Sequence record: NC_049818.1
Source: Escherichia phage tonijn
Length of the DNA stretch: 51,627 bases
Direction: 5' to 3' (one strand)
The stretch's first letter is position 1, and each line of letters opens with the position of its first letter. A model generated the notes under the pieces. The model worked only from the letters and a program-made list of their open reading frames with translations. It searched no databases and was not told the origin of the DNA. The translations under genes and the position numbers were made by a program. Shown here piece by piece: positions 8,146 through 31,373 of the stretch.

Positions 8146-8907
8146 ATGGCTAATAAAGAATCAGGTAGAGTTGAATTTGAGAACTGCCTACAAAGTTTAT
8201 ACCCAGGCGAAATTATAACGCTCGTAGAGATTGATGGGACGAAGTTCGGAGCAAATATTTACCGATTTCACAATGAGAACATCTCTTATACTGCCGAAGA
8301 ATTAATGCAAGCGCAGCAAACTGGAATCTTGCCGCCGAAAGATATTATTTTTCAGGGTGAGGTTTACGGAGCGCGACCTTTCGGTGTGAGCGGGATTAAC
8401 TTCACAAGTAACGGCAGGGCAGATAAGCCTCAGCTTATAGTGTCAAACCTTGACAGCAGGGTTAGCGCCATGATCAGAAACTACAATGGCATGATGCAAG
8501 CAAAGGTGACTTTCTGGATTACGGCAAAGGAATTTATAGGAGAAGGCGGAGCAATCAAAGATGGCGCTTACAGAAAATTGGTTTATTACATTGAGCGCCC
8601 AAGCCAGTATAATAGAGAGGTGGCGAAATTTGATCTGACGTCGCCTTACGATATGGATGGACTGATGATCCCGCCGCGCATCACTCAAAGTGTTTGCTAT
8701 TGGGCGCAAAGGGGGTGGTACAGGAGCGGAAAGGGTTGCTCTTATAACGGATCGGCAATGTTCGATAAAGACAATAAGCCAGTAACAGATCCATCACAAG
8801 ACTATTGCGCCGGAACTGTAACGGCTTGCAAATTGAGATTCGGTCAGCAAAACGAGTTGGATTTCGGCGGTTGCGCGGTGGCGTCACTGCTACGGAGGAA
8901 TCAATAA
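8146..8907 (+). CDS. Minor tail protein (lambda gpL-like)
   Basis: 253 aa with a C-terminal Cys cluster (CYWAQ...GCSYNG...YCAG...CKL...GGCAV) consistent with the gpL Fe-S motif. Confidence 0.65.
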   Translation: MANKESGRVEFENCLQSLYPGEIITLVEIDGTKFGANIYRFHNENISYTAEELMQAQQTGILPPKDIIFQGEVYGARPFGVSGINFTSNGRADKPQLIVSNLDSRVSAMIRNYNGMMQAKVTFWITAKEFIGEGGAIKDGAYRKLVYYIERPSQYNREVAKFDLTSPYDMDGLMIPPRITQSVCYWAQRGWYRSGKGCSYNGSAMFDKDNKPVTDPSQDYCAGTVTACKLRFGQQNELDFGGCAVASLLRRNQ

Positions 8908-9638
8908 TGATTAGTGCAAAAATTAAACTTGAAATAATGCAGCACGTTAAAGAGGAATACCCTAAAGAGGCTTGCGGCGTCATAACTCAAAAGTCACGGG
9001 TACAGAAATATCACCGCATAACCAACGTGCATGACGATCCAGAAAATCATTTTGAAATGGACGCCGTAGAATACGCTGAATCGCTCGACAAAGGCGAATT
9101 AATCGCGGTGGTACATTCCCATTGCGGGGATGGTGCTAGTACGATACCGAGCGCGCACGACTCATGTATGTGCGATGAAATGGGTGTGTCGTGGATTATA
9201 GTGTCATGGCCCGAAGGTGATATGAGAATTGTAGAGCCGCAGGAGAGGCCGCTTATCGGTCGCCCGTGGTCGCTTGGGTCGTTCGATTGCTGGGGTCTTA
9301 TCATGGCGTGGCATAAACAGCACGGAGTAGTATTGAATGACTTCCGAAAGCCTTACGAGTGGTGGAAGTCAGAATATGGTGAAAATCTTTACCAGGATAA
9401 TTATTTAAAAGAGGGATTTATTGAAACTAACGAGCCTCCAAAGCCTGGTGATATGGTGATTATGCAGCTATCATCGCCAGTCTGGAATCATGCGGGGATT
9501 TATTTGGGTAACAATCAGCTATTACATCATGCGTTTGGAAAGCTATCTCGCATTGACTTGTATTCTGGATGGTATCAGGAGCACACTGTAAAAATTTGCC
9601 GACATAAGGATCTGAAATATGACATTGAAAGTAATTAA
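8907..9638 (+). CDS. Tail assembly protein (lambda gpK-like; JAB/MPN plus NlpC/P60 domains)
   Basis: ATG 8907 overlaps the L stop (TAATG); EACGVI...HSH...SAHD metal-site pattern and DCWGL Cys followed by His. Confidence 0.65.
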   Translation: MISAKIKLEIMQHVKEEYPKEACGVITQKSRVQKYHRITNVHDDPENHFEMDAVEYAESLDKGELIAVVHSHCGDGASTIPSAHDSCMCDEMGVSWIIVSWPEGDMRIVEPQERPLIGRPWSLGSFDCWGLIMAWHKQHGVVLNDFRKPYEWWKSEYGENLYQDNYLKEGFIETNEPPKPGDMVIMQLSSPVWNHAGIYLGNNQLLHHAFGKLSRIDLYSGWYQEHTVKICRHKDLKYDIESN

Positions 9639-10215
9639 GCTATCTGGTTCCCTGGGTCGTAGATTTGGCGTCTTTCACAAAATGGCGGTTGACTCATACC
9701 CCGAAGCAATACGCGCGTTATCTTCCCAGGTTGAAGGGTTCAAGGACTACATGCAAAGCGAAGTAGGATCGCGAATGAAGTATGCTGTATTCGTTGATGG
9801 AAAAAACGTTGGTCAGCATGATGAAAAATCATGGAAGTGCGCGCGAGAGGTTCGAATAGTTCCTGTTCCAACTGGTTCTAAGTCCGGCGGCCTGTTCAAT
9901 GTTGTTTTTGGTGCTGTAATTATGGCTACTGCGTTCATTACTGGCGGTGCAAGCCTGGCGGCTATGGGCGCTTTTGCATCTTCCGCATTTATGATGGGTG
10001 GTGCTATCGCACTTGGCGGTGTCATGCAAATGATCTCACCGCAGCAGGGTGGAATGAAACTGCAAAGCCAGTCAGCAGAGAATAAGCCTTCTTACGCTTT
10101 CGGCGGCGCAGTAAATACCACGGCGGCAGGTTATCCGGTTCCTTTGCCATATGGATATAGGACAGTAGGCGGCGCGATATGGTCGGCTGGCAGCTACGCA
10201 GAAGATAAAGCATAA
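9619..10215 (+). CDS. Tail assembly protein (lambda gpI-like)
   Basis: 198 aa, hydrophobic Gly/Ala-rich C-terminal half; lies between K and J. Confidence 0.6.
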   Translation: MTLKVIKLSGSLGRRFGVFHKMAVDSYPEAIRALSSQVEGFKDYMQSEVGSRMKYAVFVDGKNVGQHDEKSWKCAREVRIVPVPTGSKSGGLFNVVFGAVIMATAFITGGASLAAMGAFASSAFMMGGAIALGGVMQMISPQQGGMKLQSQSAENKPSYAFGGAVNTTAAGYPVPLPYGYRTVGGAIWSAGSYAEDKA

Positions 10216-10245
10216 AAAAATACCCGCCTTGCGCGGGTTTTTTTG
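10216..10245 (+). terminator. Rho-independent terminator between I and J
   Basis: Hairpin cccgccttgcgcggg at 10223-10237 followed by T7 tract. Confidence 0.6.
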
Positions 10246-10293
10246 TGCATTTATAATGTGCAAACCAAGAAACAGCACAAAAGGTTAAAAGTC

Positions 10294-13200
10294 ATGGCTA
10301 AATATATGATAAGCGGCAGTAAGGGCGGAAGCAAAAAGCCATATGTGCCAAAAGAGATGGAAGATAACCTGATCTCGATAAACAAGATTAAAGTTTTGCT
10401 GGCTGTATCTGATGGCGAGTGCGATCCAGATTTCACGTTGCGTGATCTTTATCTTGATGATGTTCCGGTTATTGCCAGCGATGGCACTGTTAACTATGAG
10501 GGTGTAACGGCTGAATATAGACCAGGCACACAGACGCAAGATTACATCCAGGGGTTTACTGACACGTCAAGCGAGGTGACAGTTTCGCGAGATATTACAA
10601 CAGACAATCCCTATATTATCTCTGTAACAAATAAAAATCTTTCTGCAATCAGAATCAAGATTCTGATGCCAACTGGCATAAAACAGGAGGATAACGGCGA
10701 TCTTGTTGGTGTAAGGGTTCAATATGCCGTAGATATGGCTGTTGATGGCGGTTCTTATAACGAGGTTATGAGAGATGTAATTGACGGCAAGACAAGATCA
10801 GGATATGACCGCAGCAGAAGGATTGATCTTCCTAAGTTTGATGAGCGCGTTTTAATCAGGGTCAAGCGACTGACTCCAGACAGCACATCTTCAAAGGTGA
10901 CTGATAAAATCAAACTGCAAAGTTACGCTGAGGTTGTGGATGCAAAATTCCGTTATCCTCTGACTGGCCTTGTATTCGTAGAATTTGACAGCGAATTGTT
11001 TCCTACGCAAATCCCTAACATTTCTATAAAAAAGAAATGGAAGATTATTAACGTGCCAAGCAACTACGATCCAATATCAAGAGAATATCACGGGTCATGG
11101 GATGGTACTTTTAAAAAAGCGTGGTCAAATAATCCTGCTTGGGTGCTTTATGATCTGGTAACGAATCAGCGTTATGGGCTTGACCAGCGAGAGCTAGGAA
11201 TACAGATCGACAAGTGGAGCTTATATGAGGCAGGAGTTTACTGTGATCAGAAAGTTCCAGACGGTAAAGGCGGTACAGAGCCTCGCTACCTATGCGATGT
11301 TGTGATTCAGAATCAAGTTGAGGCTTATCAGCTAATCCGTGACATTTGCTCAATCTTTCGCGGAATGAGCTTTTGGAATGGTGAGAGCTTATCAATCGTG
11401 ATTGATAAGCCGCGCGATCCATCATACGTGTTTACTAATGAAAACGTCATCAACGGTGATTTTCAGTACACAACCGCAAGCGAAAAAAGCATGTACACGC
11501 AGTGTAACGTGACGTTTGACGACGAACAAAACATGTATCAACAGGACGTAGAGGGGGTTTTTGATACTGAGGCGGCATTACGATTTGGATACAATCCAAC
11601 AAGCATTACAGCGATCGGGTGTACACGCAGGAGCGAAGCGAATCGTCGCGGTCGGTGGGTTTTGAAAACAAACCTTAGAAGCACTACTGTAAACTTTGCT
11701 ACTGGACTGGAGGGGATGATTCCATCAATAGGTGATGTGATTGCTATCGCTGATAATTTTCAGAGCAGCAACCTAACGTTAAACCTATCGGGCCGAGTGA
11801 TGGAAGTTTCAGGATTGCAGGTTTTCGTTCCGTTTAAGGTTGATGCTCGTCCTGGTGATTTTATTATCATCAACAAGCCGGACGGTAAGCCAGTTAAGCG
11901 CACGATCTCAAAGGTTAGCGCAGACGGAAAAACCATTGAGTTAAATATTGGATTTGGTTTTGATGTTAAGCCTGATACCGTTTTTGCGATTGACCGTACT
12001 GACCTTGCGTTGCAGCAATACGTTGTGACAACTATCAGCAAGGGTGATGACGAAAACGAGTTTACCTATTCAATCACGGCTGTAGAGTACGATCCGAACA
12101 AATACGACGAGATTGATTATGGAGTAAACATTGATGACAGGCCAACTTCAATTGTTCAGCCTGACGTGATGGCAGCGCCTGAGAACGTGCAGATCTCATC
12201 TTATTCTCGCGTCGTGCAGGGTGTCAGCGTTGAAACTATGGTTGTGTCATGGGAAAAAGTGCCTTATGCGTCATTGTATGAAATGCAATGGCGAAAAGGT
12301 GATGGCAACTGGCTGAATACGCCGCAGACAGCTAACAAAGAGATAGAGGTAGAAGGAATTTATTCTGGTAACTACCAAGTAAGGGTTAGATCTGTTTCTG
12401 CAAGCGGTAACACTTCCCCGTGGTCAAAGATTGCAACCGCCACCCTGACAGGTAAAGTTGGCGAGCCAGGAGCGCCGATTAATCTTACAGCTTCTGATAA
12501 TGAAGTTTTTGGCATTCGTGTCAAATGGGGTATGCCGGAAGGATCGGGCGATACGGCTTACATTGAGCTTCACCAATCGCCAGATGGGACGGTGGAAAAC
12601 TCAAGTTTGCTTACGCTGATCCCGTATCCTCAATATGAGTATTGGCATAGCACGTTACCAGCGGGTCAAGTTGTATGGTATAGAATCCGTAGCGTTGACA
12701 GGATCGGCAACGTTTCCGGCTGGACTGACTTTGTTCGCGGCATGGCGTCAGATGATGTTGAATCTGTTTTAGGCGACATTCTGGACAAGATTTTTGATAC
12801 CGAAGCGGGTCAAGAAATCAAAGAGAACGCCATAGACAGTGCAAACAAAATCAAAGACCAGGCGCAATCAATCATCCAGAACGCATTGGCAAACGATGCC
12901 GATGTGAAGTGGACGCGAGTACAAAACGGAAAGCGTAAGGCTGAATATGGTCATGCACTGGAGCTTATTGCTACCGAAACGGAGGCGCGAGTAACTCAAA
13001 TCGAAGAGTTAAAGGCGTCAATTGATGAAGATATAGTTTCAAGTATCAAAACCGTTCAGGAAGCGATTGCCAACGAATCAGAGACGCGAGCTACTCAAGT
13101 GCAGCAGCTTGATTCTAAATTTACGAAGGAAATAGACGGCGTAAAACGAGATACGGCTGCAAGCATTGGCGAGGTAAGGCAAACCATTACCAATGAATCA

Positions 13201-13872
13201 GAAGCGCGTGCGCAAGCCGTTCAGCAGCTTGACGCTAAGTTTACGAAAGAGATAAACGACCTTGACGAAGTGATCAAAACCGAAGTCGAGGCTAACATCT
13301 CAGAAGTGAAACAGGCGATCGCTAATGAGACAGAGGCAAGGGTTCAGGCCGACCAGTCTTTAACAGCTAAATTCGGAGACGTTGAGTCAGCACTAGCAGA
13401 AAAACTTGATTCGTGGGCTAACGTTGATTCGGTTGGCGCTAAGTACGCTATGAAATTGGGCCTTAATTACAAGGGGCAGAAGTACAGCGCAGGAATGGTA
13501 ATGCAGCTATCGCAATCGTCGCAGGGGTTGATCTCACAAATCCTTTTCGATGCTAACCGATTTGCAATTATGACCAGTTCGGCAGGTGGCGTTTACACAT
13601 TGCCGTTTGTAGTAGAAAATAACCAGGTGTTTATCAACAGTTTGTTGGTGAAAAACGGGTCCATTACTAACGCAATGATTGGTAACGTGATTCAGTCAAA
13701 TAACTTTGTTCAGAATCAGCAAGGATGGAGGCTTGATAAAAATGGTAACTTTGAGAACTACGGAACGAGAGCTGGAGAAGGAGCTACAAAATTCACTAAC
13801 GAAGGCTTAAAGGTGAAAGATGCAAATGGACGATTGAGGGTTGAGATAGGGAGAATAACCGGAAGTTGGTAA
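10294..13872 (+). CDS. Central tail fiber / host specificity protein (lambda gpJ-like)
   Basis: ATG 10294 after AAAGG; about 1192 aa; follows M-L-K-I; contains tandem repeats near the C-terminus. Confidence 0.75.
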   Translation: MAKYMISGSKGGSKKPYVPKEMEDNLISINKIKVLLAVSDGECDPDFTLRDLYLDDVPVIASDGTVNYEGVTAEYRPGTQTQDYIQGFTDTSSEVTVSRDITTDNPYIISVTNKNLSAIRIKILMPTGIKQEDNGDLVGVRVQYAVDMAVDGGSYNEVMRDVIDGKTRSGYDRSRRIDLPKFDERVLIRVKRLTPDSTSSKVTDKIKLQSYAEVVDAKFRYPLTGLVFVEFDSELFPTQIPNISIKKKWKIINVPSNYDPISREYHGSWDGTFKKAWSNNPAWVLYDLVTNQRYGLDQRELGIQIDKWSLYEAGVYCDQKVPDGKGGTEPRYLCDVVIQNQVEAYQLIRDICSIFRGMSFWNGESLSIVIDKPRDPSYVFTNENVINGDFQYTTASEKSMYTQCNVTFDDEQNMYQQDVEGVFDTEAALRFGYNPTSITAIGCTRRSEANRRGRWVLKTNLRSTTVNFATGLEGMIPSIGDVIAIADNFQSSNLTLNLSGRVMEVSGLQVFVPFKVDARPGDFIIINKPDGKPVKRTISKVSADGKTIELNIGFGFDVKPDTVFAIDRTDLALQQYVVTTISKGDDENEFTYSITAVEYDPNKYDEIDYGVNIDDRPTSIVQPDVMAAPENVQISSYSRVVQGVSVETMVVSWEKVPYASLYEMQWRKGDGNWLNTPQTANKEIEVEGIYSGNYQVRVRSVSASGNTSPWSKIATATLTGKVGEPGAPINLTASDNEVFGIRVKWGMPEGSGDTAYIELHQSPDGTVENSSLLTLIPYPQYEYWHSTLPAGQVVWYRIRSVDRIGNVSGWTDFVRGMASDDVESVLGDILDKIFDTEAGQEIKENAIDSANKIKDQAQSIIQNALANDADVKWTRVQNGKRKAEYGHALELIATETEARVTQIEELKASIDEDIVSSIKTVQEAIANESETRATQVQQLDSKFTKEIDGVKRDTAASIGEVRQTITNESEARAQAVQQLDAKFTKEINDLDEVIKTEVEANISEVKQAIANETEARVQADQSLTAKFGDVESALAEKLDSWANVDSVGAKYAMKLGLNYKGQKYSAGMVMQLSQSSQGLISQILFDANRFAIMTSSAGGVYTLPFVVENNQVFINSLLVKNGSITNAMIGNVIQSNNFVQNQQGWRLDKNGNFENYGTRAGEGATKFTNEGLKVKDANGRLRVEIGRITGSW
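12966..13380 (+). repeat. Four tandem imperfect repeats of about 120 bp inside the J gene (protein motif AIANESE-RA--VQQLD-KFTKEI)
   Basis: Repeat units visible at about 12966, 13060, 13186 and 13311 at both DNA and protein level. Confidence 0.6.
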
Positions 13873-13905
13873 AAAAAAAGGGGGCATGGCCCCCTTTAAT
13901 TTTAA
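13871..13905. terminator. Bidirectional terminator between convergent J and the - strand cassette
   Basis: A9 tract, hairpin gggggcatggccccc (13880-13894), then T-rich tract. Confidence 0.7.
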
Positions 13906-14528
13906 TCATAGTGCGATGAATTTATAACCAAAACAGATGATGCCGTGTAAATACCAACAGGACCAGGAGTTTGCGCAACCTGCCTAGATAAAGAATATAC
14001 CCCGTTGCCATACGCGGCAGCTTGAGACTCAAATATCATGAATCCACCTAAAGACGGATTGGGCACAGAGTTTAAAGCTGTTAGTGATGGCATGATGGCG
14101 CAAGGGTATCCCAAGTTAACGTCAAAAGCGATCCCGCTTACAGATACAAGTTTTGCATCCAAAGGCTTCATCTTTCCATGATAAACCATCTCACCATTAG
14201 CATTATAAAAAGCTATTCCGTGACTACCAGGAGGAGTAACCATGTTGCTAAAAGCATAAACAAATACCTCGCCTTGATTGTCGGACTTTTCTATCTTTAT
14301 TGCGTGCTTCCCACCATTATTAAACTGAGTAAATGCTATGTATGATTTTGATGTTAACCTTACAAAAAAGAAGCACGGTCTATTTATTGGTATAGAAGTA
14401 TTAAAAACGGTTCCTGTTCTTGCTGATATTTTCCCTTTATCTATAAGGTTAACAGGAGTGAAATCTGGACTTAACCACAATGAACCGTCTGGTTTTTTTA
14501 TGCTCATCCCGTACATTATTACCCCCAA
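13902..14528 (-). CDS. Hypothetical protein (last gene of the - strand cassette)
   Basis: 208-aa ORF; start overlaps the stop of the upstream ORF. Confidence 0.5.
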   Translation of the reverse strand: MGVIMYGMSIKKPDGSLWLSPDFTPVNLIDKGKISARTGTVFNTSIPINRPCFFFVRLTSKSYIAFTQFNNGGKHAIKIEKSDNQGEVFVYAFSNMVTPPGSHGIAFYNANGEMVYHGKMKPLDAKLVSVSGIAFDVNLGYPCAIMPSLTALNSVPNPSLGGFMIFESQAAAYGNGVYSLSRQVAQTPGPVGIYTASSVLVINSSHYD

Positions 14529-14797
14529 AAAGTATATATATATCTTGAGTCAGATCCAGAAAGGCCACTCCATGTAACGGTATCACCACTTACACCCAAC
14601 TTTGGAGCGCCTGGATCGCCTCCTCGCCACGAATTCATTCCAACATATATTGCTTTCAAAGACTTACCTGGCGGCCTGTTTGAGTAGGTCTTACTGCCGG
14701 ATGATTGGGTAAATTTATCCAAGAAAAAAACTGGAGTTAAAAGGCCAGTAACATTTCTACCTTGCTCATCATATATTGCATACCCATATTCAGCCAT
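14519..14797 (-). CDS. Hypothetical protein
   Basis: 92-aa ORF translationally coupled to the flanking genes. Confidence 0.45.
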   Translation of the reverse strand: MAEYGYAIYDEQGRNVTGLLTPVFFLDKFTQSSGSKTYSNRPPGKSLKAIYVGMNSWRGGDPGAPKLGVSGDTVTWSGLSGSDSRYIYTFWG

Positions 14798-15065
14798 TTT
14801 TGCACCTCAAATCAATGAATTTTCTTTCATCTTGCCAACGGTTGATAAATTTAACTTCTTTATTGTCAACGCTCAACCTGTATTGCTTTTGGCTGAATCT
14901 GTTTTCGCGGACCGCATTAATTTTAACTTCATGGAATCCGTTAACAGGGAATGTTTTAACGTTAAATTTTGCCGTGCAATCGATCTCCTTGAAGTTGCCA
15001 GTAGGCGAAGAAGAACATCCGGTCAGGGCGGCTACGGTGGCGATAACTGCGATTAATTTTTTCAT
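14790..15065 (-). CDS. Lipoprotein, candidate superinfection-exclusion protein (Cor/Llp-like)
   Basis: ATG 15063-15065 after AAGGAG; signal peptide with lipobox LTGC (MKKLIAVIATVAALTGCSS); position next to tail fiber genes. Confidence 0.5.
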   Translation of the reverse strand: MKKLIAVIATVAALTGCSSSPTGNFKEIDCTAKFNVKTFPVNGFHEVKINAVRENRFSQKQYRLSVDNKEVKFINRWQDERKFIDLRCKNG

Positions 15066-15097
15066 CTTCAATACTCCTTAGTTGTTGTTGGCTGTAA

Positions 15098-15140
15098 CTA
15101 TACACGATCCGGCAAGCCGAGTTTAGCAAAAAGTGCTACT
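15098..15140 (-). promoter_or_regulatory. Conserved 20-bp element plus TATAGT -10, oriented to drive the lipoprotein cassette
   Basis: The - strand reads TAGCACTTTTTGCTAAAC, 18 nt, then TATAGT, then AAGGAG RBS. Confidence 0.45.
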
Positions 15141-15508
15141 TGTTATTTTTTGTTTTCCGGTGTTATCGGATTTAAGGCGGCGTAAATTTAGCGCAAATTT
15201 TAGCCAACATAAGAACAATAAATAATCAATAAAATAGGTATATACATATAAAATCAATAGTTTATTTATTTATGTATGTGTATTTGTTTTTTCTTGTTAT
15301 CTGTGTTTCTTGTGGTTTTGGTTGTTTGTGGTGATTTTTCTTTCTGAGTATCTGTATGTGCCATCATTCATGTGTATGTATATAATCCGGCGTATCTGAG
15401 AGAACGAGGGAACAAGAAAAATAACACATATTAATCATTAACTTACGCGTCAAATTTGTTTTATTGCCATCTGAGAACGTTTAGAAAACAGAAAAAACAA
15501 AACAACTA

Positions 15509-15536
15509 TTGACTAAATCAACCAAATGGCTACAAT
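15509..15536 (+). promoter_or_regulatory. Sigma70-type promoter (TTGACT-N16-TACAAT) for the recombination operon
   Basis: TTGACT 15509-15514, TACAAT 15531-15536, RBS GAGGAG 15553-15558, ATG 15567. Confidence 0.6.
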
Positions 15537-15566
15537 GCACACACAAAGCAACGAGGAGCATTAAAG

Positions 15567-16622
15567 ATGAGTGATTTTAACGCCTATACTAGCGAAGAAA
15601 TGAGCAATGAGCTTTATCATGATCCTAACGCGTGGACGGCTGAATACGTCAGCGGTTCCAGCCTGGCGGAGATTTACAGCACTTGCCCTGCGTACTGGAA
15701 GTACAAGCCTCGCCAGGAAACCAAAGCACTTGTTTTCGGTACGCAGTCGCATACCAATTTTGAAAGCAAGGAGTTATTCGAAAAAACATATCGCCGCGCA
15801 CCGTCGCAGGATGATTTTAAAGATCTGATCACAAGTCAAACGGCGTTGGCCTCAAAGCTGAAATCTTTTGGCCTGAAAGGTACAACGGGTAAGCAATACC
15901 CTGAATTGCTGGAAATGCTGTACAAGTGCGGTGAGGATCTCAATGTGTGGTGGCTTATCGAAATGATGGCAGAATGCCAGGCCGCAGCGGACGGCGTGCA
16001 GCTAATCGACGCGAAAGATTATGATGCCTGTGTAGCGATGCGGCGCGTACTTGAGGCAATACCTGAGCATAATGCTTGCATGAATAGCCCAACCGCGCAG
16101 CGTGAAATGTCAATATTCGGGATCATCAATGGCGTAAAAGTTAAAGTGCGCCTTGATCACGTTGACGTAAACAAGGATGTAAAGGCCACAATCATTAACG
16201 GTTACGACGAAAAAGGCCGACCGATTTATGAAGAAGTCATCTATCCAGAAGCTGTGATTATCACTGACTATAAAACAACGGTTAGCGCAAATCCGGTTGA
16301 CTTCCAGCGCCTGGCTTACAATCACGGCTATTATCTCAAAATGGCTTTGCAGCATGATTTATTTAAAAAGGCGTATCCAGACGAGGAAAGGCCAGTAATT
16401 GTGAGATTGCTTGCTCAAGAGAAGAAAGAGCCTTACTTGCCGCTCGCATTCCGCATGAACATTGAGCAATTGAAGATTGGGCGTATCCAGTACATGAGCG
16501 TGATCAATAAGTTCAATGTTTGCCAGAAGTTAGATGAATGGCCTTCGTATGCAAACGGACAACCAGAAATTGATCTGGATACTCCTGATTGGGTGCGCGC
16601 TCAATTCAGGCAGTATCTATAA
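15567..16622 (+). CDS. PD-(D/E)XK-type recombination exonuclease (putative)
   Basis: 351 aa; VIITDYKTT motif consistent with a D-x-K nuclease core; first gene of the exonuclease-Erf-SSB module. Confidence 0.5.
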   Translation: MSDFNAYTSEEMSNELYHDPNAWTAEYVSGSSLAEIYSTCPAYWKYKPRQETKALVFGTQSHTNFESKELFEKTYRRAPSQDDFKDLITSQTALASKLKSFGLKGTTGKQYPELLEMLYKCGEDLNVWWLIEMMAECQAAADGVQLIDAKDYDACVAMRRVLEAIPEHNACMNSPTAQREMSIFGIINGVKVKVRLDHVDVNKDVKATIINGYDEKGRPIYEEVIYPEAVIITDYKTTVSANPVDFQRLAYNHGYYLKMALQHDLFKKAYPDEERPVIVRLLAQEKKEPYLPLAFRMNIEQLKIGRIQYMSVINKFNVCQKLDEWPSYANGQPEIDLDTPDWVRAQFRQYL

Positions 16623-16955: not shown

Positions 16956-17612
<657 letters not shown>

Positions 17613-27795: not shown

Positions 27796-27865
27796 GTTTA
27801 ATTTTTTACCATGTGCGTTTATCATGCGGTCAATATATTGACTTTAATTAATATGGAGAATAAAA

Positions 27866-28081
27866 ATGAAAGATTTTATTAACGCAGCTACCGCCGGATC
27901 TGGCGGTTCATCTATCGCAAGCGCCGCTACAGGGCAGTTAACCATTGCTATTGCCAGTTTTGTTTTAATGGCTGCATTCGGTGCGTGGGGCGCTTACCTT
28001 CGCTGGCGTGATAGTAAAAAATTCCACGAGGCGATCGAAAAAGGTGATATTCAAAAAGCTATTGAAATCAGGGGCAAGTAA
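27866..28081 (+). CDS. Holin (putative pinholin)
   Basis: 71 aa, hydrophobic segments and charged C-terminus; immediately upstream of the endolysin. Confidence 0.55.
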
Positions 28082-28572: not shown

Positions 28573-28964
28573 TGAAGAAATTTTTATTTACACCAATCGC
28601 AATGGCGGTGATCTTGTCTGGATGTTCAAGCGTTACGCCACTGACCGGATTAATCGGCAGTAAGCCGGAAATAACAGCACAGGCTGGCGCGGAGAACGTG
28701 AAGCAGACAGTTGGCATTACAGCAAAGCAGGACGCCAGCACAAAACAGGAAACCACAATAAAGGAATCTGCGGTTGACAAGGTGGACACGTCCAGCAAGA
28801 AGGATTTCACAACATCAACCATTCAGGCCAATACCATCAAGGCAGACAAAATTCAGGTCGTGCAGGGTAATAACGGCAGATGGTACGATCCAATAATCAT
28901 ATGCGTGGTTGTGTTCATTGTGCTGATTTGTCTTTACTGGAGGGAAAAGAAAAAGGAGGCTTAA
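28569..28964 (+). CDS. Unimolecular spanin (lipoprotein with C-terminal TM helix)
   Basis: ATG 28569 overlaps the endolysin stop; lipobox ILSGCSS at the N-terminus and TM segment [16 protein letters not shown] at the C-terminus. Confidence 0.6.
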
Positions 28965-28982
28965 TGCCTCCTTTATTTTTAT
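28956..28982. terminator. Bidirectional terminator at the lysis cassette / leftward block boundary
   Basis: Hairpin aggaggcttaatgcctcct followed by T-rich tract. Confidence 0.55.
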
Positions 28983-29203
28983 GCGTCGGGCCACATATGA
29001 GTTTCGTTTGTTGGCTTGTTCGATTCGTCGTACTGCCTTACTTCAATGCTGCAAGTGTCGCCGTACAGTTCTGCAATCTTGCGCTCATTTTCAACCGCCG
29101 ATTGCTCACTCCATCCAAAATCCCTGTCGTAAATTGTCGGTATTTCAGCAGAAGATCCGTTGTCATGATTATATACGCGAACTACTAAAAACTTGCTGGA
29201 CAT
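28979..29203 (-). CDS. Hypothetical protein
   Basis: 74-aa ORF downstream of the element copy at 29240-29283. Confidence 0.45.
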   Translation of the reverse strand: MSSKFLVVRVYNHDNGSSAEIPTIYDRDFGWSEQSAVENERKIAELYGDTCSIEVRQYDESNKPTNETHMWPDA

Positions 29204-29239
29204 AATTTTACCTTTTGGTTGTTTCGTTTCGATGAAACA

Positions 29240-29283
29240 AATATACCCGACACTAGGCCGGGCGTTTTAACAAAAAATGCTAT
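29240..29283 (-). promoter_or_regulatory. Conserved 20-bp element plus hairpin; right arm of the inverted pair with 26021..26066
   Basis: The - strand reads AATAGCATTTTTTGTTAAAACgcccggcctagtgtcgggtATATTT. Confidence 0.5.
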
Positions 29284-29474
29284 TCCATACGCTTTACCGT
29301 AACCAGTAATACACCATCATCATTGCATAAAACATGTTCAGTGGTGCTAAAAGCGCGCATATCTGAATAAAGTAGCGTAAGTAAAGCATGAATAAAATCC
29401 TCATGTGATATTGAATTTACGGCGCAGTGCTTCAAGATCTTGTCTATTAGCTTTTGCCTGGAACAATTCATCAT
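29280..29474 (-). CDS. Small hypothetical protein (start uncertain; overlaps the end of 29401..29796)
   Basis: Stop TAG embedded in the 20-bp element as in other boundary cassettes; alternative internal start at 29360. Confidence 0.3.
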   Translation of the reverse strand: MMNCSRQKLIDKILKHCAVNSISHEDFIHALLTLLYSDMRAFSTTEHVLCNDDGVLLVTVKRME

Positions 29475-29796
29475 CGCCCATCTCCCCTATTCTCGCCATA
29501 TCCCTGATCCAGTCGTTGCGCATACCATCCAGGCTATACAATTCGAATCCGAAAGGACGCTTTGACGATCCTTTGGACCAGTATTTACCGCAGACCCCAT
29601 CTATATAGCCAGCCGTCATCATTCTTGCGCAAAATTCCTTAGATGCAAGGCTGGCGAACATTCGCGGCGTAAGTCCGGCGGCACGTGCGAGCCGCTCGCA
29701 TTCTCTATGCTGATAGATAAATTTGGCTATGTGCTGCCTGTTAAACCAGTCGTATGACTCACACCATTTATACAGATCAAGCAAAAACATAATCAT
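29401..29796 (-). CDS. Hypothetical protein
   Basis: 131-aa ORF; ATG overlaps the stop of the upstream gene (ATGA). Confidence 0.5.
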   Translation of the reverse strand: MIMFLLDLYKWCESYDWFNRQHIAKFIYQHRECERLARAAGLTPRMFASLASKEFCARMMTAGYIDGVCGKYWSKGSSKRPFGFELYSLDGMRNDWIRDMARIGEMGDDELFQAKANRQDLEALRRKFNIT

Positions 29797-31373
29797 CCCA
29801 GCAGTATTGGATTTACAAAAATAACACCATTAATCACACAAACATAATTTCTCTCTTCCAGCATTGGCAGCAAGTGCCCTTCTATCCTCTTCATTACGCC
29901 AGCTTGACCAACGAAAGGTTTTACCTTTCTCGCTGATTCGTACAGGGCGCGGATATTCAGAATCCCTTTATTAGCCTTGCCGTGTCTAGTGATCAATTCA
30001 ATCAATTTACCCATTTCAGCATCATCACCAGCATAACCAGAAGCATTGGCGGCGCTAATGTATGTTTTGCTCAATTCCTGAAACATGATCAGCGCCTCTT
30101 GCATTGTTTCCACGTCGATCTCTTTCGACTTCTGCGGGTATCCAGCAGGATTAAACCAGTTGCGGATAACATGCAGGACGGAAGCAAGCCTGATCACCTG
30201 TTTATCCATTTTACCCAGCGCACCGCGTAACATTGTATGAGAATACTTTCCGCCGTCTGCAAGATGCGGTTCCATATCCTGGCGAGCAATGTTGAGCACT
30301 CGCATAGCTGAACGGCTTATTTTCAGCGATACATTTGATTCGCTCATGATGTTATGCACCAATTGATAATATTGGGCCTTCAATTCAGAATCCACCGCCT
30401 CATAGGTAGAATCACCATTTTCATCAATGAATGAGCGACGGCCTAAGAATGATTCCTCACGTACCAACAAAAAGCGCTCACTCACACCGATACCGCGCGA
30501 TCCAGCGTCCATGATTCCGCTTATCGTTTCATCCTGGGCTATAACGCTCATACATCCAAGTGCGCGAAAACTCATGTTATTGTCAGCATTAGCACGGGCA
30601 ATTGATACGTGACCATTATCCCACGCCTTAAGCACTAGCTCGCTGTTAGTCTTCCTTTCGCTATTGGCATAGGTCAAGCCTAACAGACTGTTAATACTTG
30701 TTGCTTCGTCAGATATTACGGCAAAGTTACCTTGCTTGTTGTTGATTTTTGCCAAGCCTTCTGGAGTTGTATCTGAAACAGGGAAAGTTATATCACACAT
30801 CTTTTCCAGCTTCTCCTCCAGATCCTCTTTTTCCTGGTATAGAGATTCCATATCAGCGCCTGATCTTTCGCTTTTCATCTCCTTTGCAAGACCTGCCAAC
30901 TTTGCCTGTATTTTCTTTCTTTCCTTGCGGCGTTGCTCGTTGATCTTCTCAACTTCCGCAATCATCGGAGCAATAGCCATACTATTGATCGCAGATTTAC
31001 CAGTTGACGGCGGCTGGCTTGTAACAACGTAAAGCGCAGTCGGCTGATCGGTTCCGTGATAGTCAACCGTAAAGCGTCCAAGCATAGCGGCAGAAATGCA
31101 GCCGATAAAGTGCATGTAAGCTGATGATTCAGGGAATTGAACGGATCGCGCAATGCTGCGTGATAGCTTGCCGACAACATCAATATCATTACCAAGAGAA
31201 ATAACGGGGTAGCGATCGTGACCGCTATTTACATCCTTCACGTCGCCCCAAAAGCTGGACGACTGGCGATAGCCGTTAGCCTGAATTGATACGCGAACTG
31301 GTGAAAGGTTCTGGCTTTCAGCCATAGCGATTATTTGCTGTGGAGTTAATTTGTTCGTTTCTAATGAAAACAT
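29793..31373 (-). CDS. P-loop NTPase of unknown function (Walker A and B)
   Basis: 526 aa; Walker A QPPSTGKSA and Walker B-like FAVISDEAT; AAGGAG RBS. Confidence 0.55.
   Translation of the reverse strand: MFSLETNKLTPQQIIAMAESQNLSPVRVSIQANGYRQSSSFWGDVKDVNSGHDRYPVISLGNDIDVVGKLSRSIARSVQFPESSAYMHFIGCISAAMLGRFTVDYHGTDQPTALYVVTSQPPSTGKSAINSMAIAPMIAEVEKINEQRRKERKKIQAKLAGLAKEMKSERSGADMESLYQEKEDLEEKLEKMCDITFPVSDTTPEGLAKINNKQGNFAVISDEATSINSLLGLTYANSERKTNSELVLKAWDNGHVSIARANADNNMSFRALGCMSVIAQDETISGIMDAGSRGIGVSERFLLVREESFLGRRSFIDENGDSTYEAVDSELKAQYYQLVHNIMSESNVSLKISRSAMRVLNIARQDMEPHLADGGKYSHTMLRGALGKMDKQVIRLASVLHVIRNWFNPAGYPQKSKEIDVETMQEALIMFQELSKTYISAANASGYAGDDAEMGKLIELITRHGKANKGILNIRALYESARKVKPFVGQAGVMKRIEGHLLPMLEERNYVCVINGVIFVNPILLG

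What the first reader, a model, noticed from the sequence alone, without database searches (positions are those of the whole stretch)
12966..13380. Tandem ~40-aa repeats in the C-terminal part of the J-like central fiber
At least four consecutive units are visible in the protein (ETEARVTQIEELKASI, then AIANESETRATQVQQLDSKFTKEIDG, then TITNESEARAQAVQQLDAKFTKEIND, then AIANETEARVQADQSLTAKFGDVES) and in the DNA. Such repeats are recombination-prone and may tune fiber length or flexibility.
Basis: seen in the sequence. Interest (0 to 1): 0.35.

Follow-up and report, generated by a model that had tools for sequence, protein, structure and literature searches.

The report
Hairpin-sized repeats in T1-like tail fibre
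The four repeats are real and form the helical shaft of a T1-like phage's central tail fibre; they carry the sequence signature of a shaft that, in a related bacterial killing device, refolds into a compact beta-prism to open the tail tip, so this is a new example of a recently described mechanism, not a new kind of thing.

Summary
Observation confirmed. ORF 10243/10294..13872 (+) is the orthologue of phage T1 gp33, the lambda-J-like central fibre. It holds four in-frame units starting at aa 899, 932, 972 and 1016 (nt 12937-13389). The units are 33, 40 and 44 aa long, not a uniform ~40. Self-similarity scores of 49-78 exceed the shuffle maximum of 41. At DNA level the repeat is weak: unit cores are 45-72% identical, the longest exact repeat is 11 nt, and TRF finds nothing.

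AlphaFold2 puts the whole array in one long helix (aa ~896-1039). Hydrophobic periodicity is 3.64 residues, which is hendecad-like, not heptad. Each unit holds a reverse and a forward copy of the 11-residue SxSxxMxxLxS motif. He et al. [quoted passage not shown] The window has 9 motif hits where 1.8 are expected.

Across 230 distinct units, the "small" motif positions are 91-100% small although they face away from the helix core. Relatives carry 3-7 units, mostly 33, 36, 40 or 44 aa long (9-12 helical turns). T1 itself has a 97%-identical 99-nt tandem duplication.

Best reading: a modular, probably metastable, trimeric shaft. The helix is well supported; the fold switch is inferred. It is a new member of a known kind, of moderate interest.

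The parts
10294..13872 (+). J-like central fibre / tail tip gene, orthologue of T1 gp33. The ATG at 10294 gives 1192 aa. The mechanical ORF starts at TTG 10243 and gives 1209 aa; the aa numbers in this report use the 1209-aa frame, so subtract 17 for the ATG start.
   Evidence: Pfam finds FNIII-A_GpJ at aa 109-234, Phage-tail_3 at 357-505 and Phage_Tail_Tip at 1051-1180. PDB 9L9P_S (T1 gp33) matches full length at E=0. The gene is 97% identical to the annotated tail fibre CDS of phage JLBYU07, which starts at the equivalent of 10294.
12748..12927 (+). Helical linker after the last FN3 domain (aa 836-895). It is a possible 'spine' segment and contains a degenerate unit 0 (SIIQNALANDADV).
   Evidence: AF2 predicts helices at aa 839-851 and 854-891 with low pLDDT. 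A weak diagonal at offset 60 scores 42, just above the shuffle maximum. The analogy with the 'spine' of He et al. is inference.
12928..13359 (+). Predicted long alpha-helix (aa 896-1039, about 144 residues, about 21 nm if straight) that contains the repeat array.
   Evidence: AF2 with a 36-sequence alignment gives one helix at aa 896-1039. AF2 with 87 sequences gives helices at aa 901-926 and 929-1038 with pLDDT 66-80. Hydrophobic periodicity is 3.65 residues, power 155 against a shuffle 99th percentile of 93.
12937..13035 (+). Unit 1 (aa 899-931, 33 aa): KAEYGHALELIATETEARVTQIEELKASIDEDI. The forward motif is ARVTQIEELKA; the reverse half is degenerate.
13036..13155 (+). Unit 2 (aa 932-971, 40 aa). 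Reverse motif SSIKTVQEAIA, turn NESE, forward motif TRATQVQQLDS, then a 14-aa linker.
13156..13287 (+). Unit 3 (aa 972-1015, 44 aa). Reverse motif ASIGEVRQTIT, turn NESE, forward motif ARAQAVQQLDA, then an 18-aa linker.
   Evidence: It is 62% identical to unit 2 over 34 aa.
13288..13389 (+). Unit 4 (aa 1016-1049). Reverse motif ANISEVKQAIA, turn NETE, forward motif ARVQADQSLTA (Asp at M with Arg at -4). It sits at the helix-to-beta junction.
   Evidence: AF2 ends the helix at aa 1038-1039 and starts strands at aa 1041-1042.
13393..13782 (+). Phage_Tail_Tip (DUF1983) beta domain, the counterpart of lambda gpJ's central straight fibre. The protein ends 29 aa later, with no receptor-binding domain of its own.
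   Evidence: Pfam PF09327, E 3e-40. Foldseek hits lambda gpJ 8xcj/8xci at E 1e-7. PDB sequence hits to gpJ fragments.
13902..15071 (-). Context: three small genes on the opposite strand, homologues of T1 gp31 and gp32 and a Cor-like lipoprotein. This is the likely receptor-binding and superinfection-exclusion locus whose products dock on the fibre tip.
   Evidence: PHROGs phrog_425, phrog_557 and phrog_1119. T1 annotation. Maffei et al. 2021, PMC8594841, on RBP loci downstream of gpJ in Drexlerviridae. No Pfam family matches.

Best explanation
[quoted passage not shown] The shaft links the FN3 domains that close the tail tip to the distal beta domain, where the separately encoded receptor-binding proteins dock.

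Anatomy of one unit:
- an 11-residue reverse motif (SxLxxMxxSxS);
- a 4-residue NE[ST]E segment;
- an 11-residue forward motif (SxSxxMxxLxS);
- a variable linker of 7, 14 or 18 residues.

In the virion the array most likely forms one continuous three-stranded coiled coil with hendecad-like packing (9 core positions per 33 residues), about 21 nm long here. Unit lengths differ by whole helical turns, so the hydrophobic stripe stays in phase across the array.

By homology of position and by motif with the F7/F2 pyocin central fibre, the shaft is probably metastable. On receptor binding each unit would refold into a beta-hairpin. The trimer would collapse into a short triangular beta-prism seeded by the strands that follow unit 4. 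That would pull the tip towards the membrane and open it for tape-measure and DNA exit.

The array grows and shrinks in evolution one hairpin-sized unit at a time.

Shown here: the repeats, helix propensity, periodicity, motif enrichment, conservation of small residues, and copy-number variation.
Inferred: trimeric coiled-coil packing (from the T1 and pyocin structures) and the fold switch itself.
For: - **Identity of the protein.** Full-length match to T1 gp33, a trimer in the T1 tail tip whose C-terminus (821-1172) was too flexible to resolve.
- **Helix.** Two AF2 runs place aa 896/901-1039 in a helix and start the beta structure at aa 1041.
- **Periodicity.** A sharp hydrophobic peak at 3.64-3.65 residues has power 155 against a shuffle 99th percentile of 93. 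There is none at 3.50. Twelve of the 13 proteins tested (window plus relatives, 3-7 units, arrays up to 264 aa) peak at 3.59-3.68; 10 of those exceed their shuffle 99th percentile.
- **Motif.** Nine SxSxxMxxLxS or reverse hits lie in aa 880-1060, essentially alternating F-R-F-R (one extra overlapping forward hit at aa 1039). Shuffles give a mean of 1.8, and only 1 of 2000 reaches 9. The other 879 aa hold 3 hits. The motif, its meaning and the Arg(+/-4)-Asp/Glu pairing at M come from He et al., PMC12874032.
- **Conservation.** In 230 distinct units, positions 2, 12, 17 and 27 are 100% small and position 19 is 91% small. Yet they lie 80-161 degrees from the hydrophobic face. Positions 4, 7, 11, 22, 25, 29 and 33 carry the hydrophobic stripe, and E14 and R18 are 98-99% conserved.
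- **Alignment to a solved shaft.** A long alignment places units 2-4 on F2 pyocin fibre residues 963-1056. These lie inside its cryo-EM-resolved trimeric coiled coil, 907-1085.
- **Prior prediction for T1-like phages.** He et al. list TLS and Shfl1 among the central fibres predicted to switch, with 40- and 33-residue helical inserts. Those are the unit sizes seen here.
- **Modularity.** Relatives carry 3-7 units, mostly 33, 36, 40 or 44 aa long. Internal units are the most alike. T1 has a 99-nt duplication.
Against: - The repeat region alone does not find the pyocin fibre at E<=1. A profile of the unit hits only T1 gp33 in the PDB. The link to the pyocin shaft therefore rests on position, a degenerate motif and an alignment anchored by the C-terminal domain.
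- Both AF2 runs were monomeric and gave only the helix. No beta-prism conformer was obtained. pLDDT in the helix is moderate (55-80).
- No structure of any T1-like fibre shaft exists.
- He et al. note that lambda and T5 do not show this switch.
- Rarer unit lengths of 50, 52 and 57 aa are not whole numbers of turns.
- The periodicity here is hendecad-like, whereas the F2 pyocin shaft is described as mostly heptad.
- One relative (L005) peaks at 2.07 residues rather than about 3.6, and two others (P0088 and T1, near the threshold) do not clearly exceed their shuffle controls.
Confidence: 0.55

Rival explanations
1. A static spacer. The array is an ordinary, stable trimeric coiled coil that only sets the distance and flexibility between tail tip and receptor-binding tip. 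Unit number simply tunes reach. This is essentially the first reader's view.
For: Helix prediction and coherent 3.64 periodicity. Copy number of 3-7 changes length about 2.6-fold. No beta conformer was predicted here. Lambda and T5 work without such a switch.
Against: It does not explain why positions facing away from the core are 91-100% small, including the helix-unfavourable Ser, Thr and Gly, across 230 units. It does not explain why the 11-residue motif alternates in orientation. The positionally equivalent shaft does switch in the F7 pyocin, and T1-like fibres were predicted to switch.
Confidence: 0.25
2. A docking platform. The repeated units are binding sites on the shaft for the lateral tail fibres or other accessory proteins, and the conserved small or charged surface residues are interface residues.
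For: In F-type pyocins three side-fibre trimers bind the negatively charged coiled-coil shaft at a kink, and the shaft needs them for stability. The close relative JLBYU07 encodes lateral fibre genes just downstream of the region syntenic with the window. The linkers contain Gly (KEIDGVKRD, ASIGEV). Long linkers of 50-58 aa in relatives break the helical phase.
Against: Nothing here tests binding. Laboratory T1 lacks lateral fibres yet is infectious. One docking site would not need 3-7 copies. This reading is compatible with the main explanation and does not exclude it.
Confidence: 0.1
3. A constitutive beta-prism. The array is already a stack of beta-hairpins in the virion, extending the lambda-like central straight fibre, and the helix prediction is an artefact of monomeric modelling.
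For: The motif is a strand motif. AF3 predicted a prism for 30% of related fibres. A secondary periodicity near 2.1 is present here, and a 3-unit relative peaks at 2.07. The domain that follows is a beta-prism or beta-helix.
Against: A coherent 3.64 periodicity across variable linkers, and unit lengths that are mostly whole helical turns, have no rationale in a hairpin stack. M positions are hydrophobic in 7 of 8 motifs, which He et al. associate with the coiled-coil state. The pyocin pre-ejection state is a coiled coil. For T1, AF3 gave an extended fibre of about 370 A.
Confidence: 0.07

Closest known systems
Phage T1 gp33 central fibre protein (PDB 9L9P; PMC11945409)
   Same: It is the orthologue. 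The alignment runs full length at E=0, with the same domain order, four units of the same family, and the same Phage_Tail_Tip C-terminus ending in ...GRxTGSW.
   Different: T1's units are 33/33/33 aa, and units 2 and 3 are a recent 99-nt duplication at 97% identity. The window has 33/40/44 aa with diverged copies. The downstream receptor-binding genes are inverted relative to T1. T1's shaft was not resolved, so it gives no structural answer.
F-type pyocin central fibre (F7 PyoF10 / F2 PA0641; He et al. PMC12874032; bioRxiv 10.64898/2026.02.24.707460; PDB 25VF)
   Same: J-like protein with FN3 domains, then a helical shaft of about 145-180 residues, then a beta domain, with separately encoded tip-binding proteins. 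Both carry the SxSxxMxxLxS motif in alternating orientation and Arg-Asp/Glu pairs at core positions.
   Different: Similarity in the shaft itself is not significant. The periodicity here is 3.64 (hendecad-like), against the mostly heptad pattern reported for F2. This is a DNA-injecting phage, not a tailocin. The switch is demonstrated only for F7.
Central fibres of T1-like phages TLS and Shfl1, as predicted by He et al. (Fig. 5)
   Same: [quoted passage not shown] The reported 40- and 33-residue helical inserts match the unit sizes found here.
   Different: These are predictions only. The preprint's main text never uses the word 'repeat'. The explicit repeat architecture, copy-number range and length classes are worked out here.
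Lambda gpJ (PDB 8IYK, 8XCJ)
   Same: The N-terminal 830 aa and the Phage_Tail_Tip domain are homologous. Both form a trimeric tip with upstream K- and I-like genes.
   Different: In the PDB alignments, similarity to lambda gpJ is confined to the N-terminal ~860 aa and the Phage_Tail_Tip domain; the array region does not align to it. Lambda carries its own receptor-binding domain, and He et al. say it does not show the extensive switch.
Influenza haemagglutinin HA2 and other class I fusion proteins (analogy only)
   Same: A metastable trimeric helical assembly whose refolding does mechanical work at a membrane. He et al. draw this analogy.
   Different: There is no homology. The direction is opposite (loop to helix in HA2), and HA2 has no repeat array.

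Membership tests
Lambda-J-like tip attachment / central fibre protein (T1 gp33 orthologue) | N-terminal hub domains and the FNIII-A_GpJ and Phage-tail_3 domains | tested here: met
   PF24801 at E 2.5e-41 and PF13550 at E 1e-22. Alignment to lambda gpJ 8IYK at E 2e-118 and to T1 gp33 at E=0.
Lambda-J-like tip attachment / central fibre protein (T1 gp33 orthologue) | C-terminal Phage_Tail_Tip (central straight fibre) domain | tested here: met
   PF09327 at E 3.2e-40, aa 1051-1180. Foldseek hits 8xcj/8xci at E 1e-7.
Lambda-J-like tip attachment / central fibre protein (T1 gp33 orthologue) | Synteny: directly preceded by K-like and I-like tail genes | tested here: met
   phrog_30 minor tail protein (8805-9638) and phrog_32 tail assembly protein (9619-10215). 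Same order as in T1 and JLBYU07.
Fold-switching coiled-coil / beta-prism segment of central fibre proteins (He et al. 2026) | Located between the last FN3 domain and the non-switching beta strands of the C-terminal domain | tested here: met
   The second FN3-like segment (weak self-similarity to the aa 659-733 fn3 hit) ends at about aa 835; the array spans aa 899-1049 and Phage_Tail_Tip starts at aa 1051. AF2 strands begin at aa 1041.
Fold-switching coiled-coil / beta-prism segment of central fibre proteins (He et al. 2026) | High alpha-helical / coiled-coil propensity over 100 residues or more | tested here: met
   AF2 helix of about 140 residues in two runs. Amphipathic periodicity of 3.64 well above shuffles. 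No dedicated coiled-coil predictor was available, and trimer packing was not modelled.
Fold-switching coiled-coil / beta-prism segment of central fibre proteins (He et al. 2026) | SxSxxMxxLxS motif recurring in alternating orientation | tested here: met
   Nine hits, essentially alternating F and R, against 1.8 expected; 1 of 2000 shuffles reaches 9. R-to-F spacing is constant at 15 residues.
Fold-switching coiled-coil / beta-prism segment of central fibre proteins (He et al. 2026) | Small residues at S positions conserved although exposed in the helix; L and M positions in the helix core; Arg at +/-4 of acidic M | tested here: met
   In 230 units, S positions are 91-100% small (position 10: 67%) and lie 80-161 degrees off the core direction. 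L and M positions lie within 47 degrees of it. R18 is 98% conserved, with D at M22 in 25% of units. Unit 4 here reads ARVQAD.
Fold-switching coiled-coil / beta-prism segment of central fibre proteins (He et al. 2026) | Sequence homology of the segment itself to the pyocin shaft | tested here: inconclusive
   It aligns to F2 pyocin 963-1056 only as part of a longer alignment at E 5e-18. The region alone and the unit profile do not reach E<=1.
Fold-switching coiled-coil / beta-prism segment of central fibre proteins (He et al. 2026) | An alternative beta-prism conformer is predicted or observed | tested here: inconclusive
   Only monomeric AF2 with alignments of 87 sequences or fewer could be run, and both runs gave a helix. 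He et al. needed trimers and deep alignments. An experimental switch is not testable with these tools.
Canonical heptad coiled coil | Hydrophobic periodicity of 3.5 residues | tested here: not met
   Power at 3.50 is 0.3, against 155 at 3.65. Frame tracing shows a +4 register shift every 11-18 residues. The pattern is hendecad / 18-residue-like.
DNA-level tandem repeat prone to slippage | Head-to-tail DNA copies similar enough for TRF detection or homologous pairing | tested here: not met
   TRF finds nothing in 10000-16000. Cores are 45-72% identical and the longest exact repeat is 11 nt. The feature is met in T1: 99 nt, 2.2 copies, 97%.
Curated Pfam repeat or fibre-repeat family | Match above the gathering threshold in the repeat region | tested here: not met
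   Only sub-threshold hits to generic coiled-coil families (CCDC90-like, SF-assemblin, Apolipoprotein) cover aa 908-1057.

The most novel reading that the evidence does not exclude
The array is a modular molecular spring. Each 33-44-aa unit is one beta-hairpin stored as 9-12 turns of coiled coil. The number of units (3-7 in Drexlerviridae) would then set the stroke and the stored energy of a coiled-coil-to-beta-prism collapse. For this phage that would mean roughly 21 nm of shaft shortening to a prism of about 4 nm, opening the T1-like tail tip. Unit lengths restricted to whole helical turns would be the footprint of selection on both folds at once. That would make natural copy-number variants, and the T1 duplication, a ready-made series for testing how fold-switch length relates to infection.
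Probability: 0.4. Interest if true: 0.6.

Novelty: new member of a known kind. Interest (0 to 1): 0.4.

Why it matters
How non-contractile tails obtain the energy to breach the envelope is a long-standing question. The fold-switch answer was shown in 2026 for one pyocin and only predicted for phages.

This window shows that in T1-like coliphages the candidate switch region is a clean array of hairpin-sized repeats. The copy number (3-7) and the unit lengths (33, 36, 40, 44 aa) vary naturally. That gives genetically tractable phages in which to test the mechanism, for example by adding or removing units, changing the phase, or mutating S positions.

It also explains why the gp33 C-terminus is the most variable and structurally elusive part of the T1 tip. 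For annotation it gives a simple sequence signature (xAxIxxVxxAIAxExEARAxAxxxLxAK) for a region that no Pfam family covers.

Tried and rejected
- **Tandem Repeats Finder on the gene** found nothing in the array. The repeat is a protein-level feature. TRF on a 7-unit relative (L019) was also negative.
- **First homologue search with the 374-aa C-terminus** returned mostly fragments. They served as an AF2 alignment but not for counting units. The search was repeated with the full protein.
- **A second AF2 run with a larger alignment (87 sequences)**, meant to elicit a beta conformer, gave the helix again. Monomer mode cannot settle the switch.
- **PDB searches with the repeat region alone and with a unit profile**, meant to show homology to the pyocin shaft, hit only T1 gp33 plus chance coiled coils (Atg11, ROCK1).
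- **The released F7 models** (9YG8-9YGD) were not among the matches.
- **Foldseek with the whole model** was informative only for the beta domain.
- **A Rayleigh-type test of unit-length quantisation** over the 9 distinct spacing values was weak (R about 0.5 at any period), because the rare long linkers (50-58 aa) are out of phase. The quantisation claim is therefore limited to the four common lengths.
- **Pfam on the three downstream genes** found nothing.
- **A heptad coiled coil, a collagen-like or Pfam fibre repeat, and chance similarity** were considered and rejected on the tests above.
- **Supplementary tables of He et al.** are not held, so it could not be checked whether T1 or a Warwickvirus was among their 24 fibres.


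Full report
**1. What is at the coordinates**

The interval 12966-13380 lies inside one long ORF on the + strand, 10243..13872 (1209 aa from a TTG). The closest annotated relative is Escherichia phage JLBYU07 (Drexlerviridae, Tempevirinae, Warwickvirus), 97% identical across the gene. It starts the gene at the ATG equivalent to window 10294, giving 1192 aa. I number residues from 10243; subtract 17 for the ATG start.

Pfam finds FNIII-A_GpJ (aa 109-234), Phage-tail_3 (357-505), a weak fn3 (659-733) and Phage_Tail_Tip/DUF1983 (1051-1180). Nothing above threshold covers aa 840-1050; only generic coiled-coil families hit weakly there. The protein aligns end to end with chain S of PDB 9L9P, the 1172-aa gp33 of phage T1 (E=0). 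Over its N-terminal ~860 aa it also aligns with the F2-pyocin tail fibre, a 'J-like tail tip protein gp24' and lambda gpJ.

The genes upstream are the K-like and I-like tail genes. Downstream, on the opposite strand, lie homologues of T1 gp31 and gp32 and a Cor-like lipoprotein.

**2. Are the repeats real?**

Yes. The quoted strings are in the translation.
- A BLOSUM62 self-comparison gives its four best diagonals at offsets 40, 44, 33 and 84 aa (scores 78, 64, 49, 49), all in aa 907-1050. Shuffles of the same 220-aa segment give mean 28.3 and maximum 41.
- A small profile built from the unit cores of this protein and T1 finds four units, at aa 907, 940, 980 and 1024.
- The period is therefore 33, 40 and 44 aa, not a uniform ~40.
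- At DNA level the signal is faint. A 31-nt family at 65-77% identity has spacings of 99, 120 and 132 nt, and one 40-nt pair reaches 83% between units 2 and 3. Cores are 45-72% identical and the longest exact direct repeat is 11 nt. Tandem Repeats Finder reports nothing.
- A degenerate 'unit 0' (SIIQNALANDADV, aa ~876) is at the edge of significance.

**3. Anatomy of a unit**

Framed 8 residues further upstream, each unit reads: reverse motif, four-residue NE[ST]E, forward motif, linker.

Scanning for the 11-residue pattern SxSxxMxxLxS and its reverse gives nine hits in aa 880-1060, in essentially alternating order:

| Hit | Sequence |
|---|---|
| F915 | ARVTQIEELKA |
| R933 | SSIKTVQEAIA |
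| F948 | TRATQVQQLDS |
| R973 | ASIGEVRQTIT |
| F988 | ARAQAVQQLDA |
| R1017 | ANISEVKQAIA |
| F1032 | ARVQADQSLTA |
| F1039 | SLTAKFGDVES (overlaps F1032) |
| R1049 | SALAEKLDSWA |

Shuffles give a mean of 1.8 hits, and only 1 of 2000 reaches nine. The other 879 residues hold three hits. The reverse-to-forward distance is always 15 residues. All length variation sits in the forward-to-reverse linker: 7, 14 and 18 residues.

**4. Secondary structure and periodicity**

AlphaFold2 could be run only as a monomer.
- With a 36-sequence alignment it gives one helix at aa 896-1039, then strands from aa 1042.
- With 87 sequences it gives helices at aa 901-926 and 929-1038, then strands from aa 1041, with pLDDT 66-80 in the helix.
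- The beta part matches lambda's central tail fibre structurally (8xcj/8xci, E 1e-7).

The hydrophobicity spectrum of aa 905-1060 has a sharp peak at 3.65 residues, with power 155 against a shuffle 99th percentile of 93. There is essentially nothing at 3.50. Heptad-frame tracing shows a +4 register shift every 11-18 residues. The amphipathic stripe is thus continuous through units and linkers, with hendecad-like packing (nine core positions per 33 residues).

Twelve of the 13 proteins tested (the window plus relatives carrying 3-7 units, arrays up to 264 aa) peak at 3.59-3.68, and 10 of those exceed their shuffle 99th percentile. One 3-unit variant peaks instead at 2.07.

**5. Relatives**

T1's four units are 33/33/33 aa. 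Units 2 and 3 are a 99-nt tandem duplication, 2.2 copies at 97% identity.

I surveyed 120 full-length homologues (64-98% identical overall) plus 34 fetched loci.
- Unit number runs from 3 to 7.
- Start-to-start distances are 33, 36, 40 or 44 aa in most cases. At 3.64 residues per turn these are 9, 10, 11 and 12 helical turns.
- Rarer distances are 50, 52, 57 and 58 aa.
- Internal units are the most alike (50-65% identical); the first and last units are divergent. This fits expansion by duplication of internal units.

The array is also the least conserved part of the protein. L004 is 100% identical to the window over aa 1-900 but 82% and 68% identical in the next two 50-aa bins, and its unit 2 is 52 aa rather than 40. 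L005 is 90-98% identical upstream, 54/10/46% in the array, and 80-94% just after it.

**6. What is known about this kind of region**

- The T1 cryo-EM paper modelled gp33 residues 13-820 only. The rest was too flexible, and AF3 predicted a ~370 A alpha/beta-helix extension (PMC11945409).
- Two 2026 papers resolve the equivalent part of the F-type pyocin central fibre (PA0641/PyoF10) as a trimeric coiled-coil shaft, residues ~907-1085. Side fibres dock on it, and an adhesin-bearing beta domain follows.
- He et al. (PMC12874032) show that in the F7 pyocin the 163-residue shaft converts into a triangular beta-prism on cell contact. That opens the tip and ejects the tape-measure protein. Ala-to-Gln changes at prism corners abolish killing without affecting assembly. 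The strands share the motif SxSxxMxxLxS: S is small, buried in the prism and exposed in the coil; L is buried in both; M is buried only in the coil; acidic M residues pair with Arg at +/-4.
- They predicted the same switch in 21 of 24 siphophage fibres. Their Fig. 5 legend names the T1-like phages TLS and Shfl1, with helical inserts of 40 and 33 residues in the predicted prism. Those are the unit sizes found here.
- The words 'repeat', 'heptad' and 'hairpin' do not occur in their main text.

**7. Linking the window to that mechanism**

For:
- The position between the FN3 domains and the beta domain is the same.
- The motif is enriched and alternates in orientation.
- Over 230 distinct units, the S positions (2, 12, 17, 27) are 100% small and position 19 is 91% small. 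They include Ser, Thr and Gly, and lie 80-161 degrees from the hydrophobic face. The L and M positions and positions 11, 29 and 33 form the stripe. E14 and R18 are 98-99% conserved, with R18 on the core side and Asp at M22 in a quarter of units. Such strict smallness at helix-exposed sites is hard to explain for a plain coiled coil, and it is the signature He et al. describe.
- A long alignment puts units 2-4 on F2-pyocin residues 963-1056, inside its resolved shaft.

Against or limiting:
- The shaft alone shows no significant similarity to the pyocin.
- Only a helix was predicted here.
- The periodicity differs from the heptads reported for F2.
- Lambda and T5 do not use this switch.
- No T1-like shaft has been seen experimentally.

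**8. Conclusion and mechanism**

The helical shaft made of hairpin-sized modules is well supported; I put it at about 0.85. That it is metastable and refolds into a prism during infection is an inference, at about 0.5. The confidence of 0.55 is for the combined statement.

Simple geometry, from my own knowledge of 1.5 A per helical residue and 4.8 A per strand, gives about 21 nm for the 144-residue helix and about 4 nm for an eight-strand prism. Unit number would therefore set both the reach and the stroke.

According to Maffei et al. (PMC8594841), Drexlerviridae receptor-binding proteins are separate proteins. They are thought to dock non-covalently on the end of the J-like protein and to be encoded just downstream, together with exclusion genes. 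This fits a protein that ends right after its Phage_Tail_Tip domain, and the three genes at 13902-15071.

**9. Novelty**

This is a new member of a recently described kind. What this analysis adds is the explicit repeat architecture: one unit equals a reverse strand, a turn, a forward strand and a linker. It also adds the hendecad-like periodicity, the common unit lengths equal to whole helical turns, the 3-7 copy range, the T1 duplication, and the finding that the array is the local hot spot of divergence.

It does not hold for this sequence now.

Noticed in passing
window 13902-15071 (- strand); compare L034 (T1) 28607-29850: The genes homologous to T1 gp32 (92 aa, phrog_557) and gp31 (208 aa, phrog_425) lie on the strand opposite to the J-like gene, together with a Cor-like lipoprotein (93 aa, MKMKKLIAVIATVAALTGC...). 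In T1, gp32 and gp31 follow gp33 on the same strand and only cor is inverted. The likely receptor-binding cassette is therefore inverted here. No Pfam family covers any of the three proteins.
   Followed up: partly
L034 (phage T1, NC_005833) 27809-28029: T1's gp33 gene contains a 99-nt tandem repeat, 2.2 copies at 97% identity. It encodes two copies of a 33-aa unit that are identical except in the first few residues (85% identical over the 34-aa frame). This looks like a recent duplication in the reference T1 genome.
   Followed up: yes
L004 / L008 (IMG/VR contigs) versus window aa 901-1000 (nt 12943-13242): Two metagenomic phages have a J protein 100% identical to the window over the first 900 aa, but a replaced patch in units 1-2. 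Their unit 2 linker is KFTTEISKAKDDAINGAVDAAKVYTDSS, giving 52 aa instead of 40. This looks like a short gene-conversion or recombination patch confined to the array.
   Followed up: partly
phage database hits (e.g. MG065669.1 'Campylobacter phage A123', MG065648.1 'A144'): Eighteen to 35 GenBank records named Campylobacter phage, with host given as C. jejuni, carry T1-like J genes 87% or more identical to this coliphage. These are probably contaminating or misassigned coliphages.
   Followed up: no
P0018 and P0040: Close homologues of the fibre C-terminus are deposited as a 49.6-kb 'plasmid' of Paraclostridium bifermentans and as a Gordonia sp. protein. These hosts are implausible for a T1-like coliphage, so the records are likely contamination of those assemblies.
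   Followed up: no
L005-type relatives (3 units, 33/33 aa), array aa 884-983 of that protein: In this short variant the strongest hydrophobic periodicity is 2.07 residues (beta-like; power 104 against a shuffle 99th percentile of 99), not 3.6. The window shows a weaker secondary peak at 2.1. It may be a harmonic of the 33-aa repeat, or a hint of stronger strand character.
   Followed up: partly
window 1-51627: The gene content seen between about 8.8 and 17.6 kb (tail genes, RecE-like exonuclease VIII at 15567-16622, Erf-like recombinase at 16959-17612) and the 97% identity to 50-52-kb Warwickvirus genomes suggest the window is a near-complete Drexlerviridae genome, permuted relative to JLBYU07.
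   Followed up: partly
PDB entries 23gd_D and 9ze4_N: Two further solved chains match the C-terminal part: 'J-like tail tip protein gp24' (1148 aa) and 'Tip attachment protein J central straight fiber domain-containing protein' (429 aa). No paper describing them was found in the library, and they may hold experimental views of related shafts.
   Followed up: no
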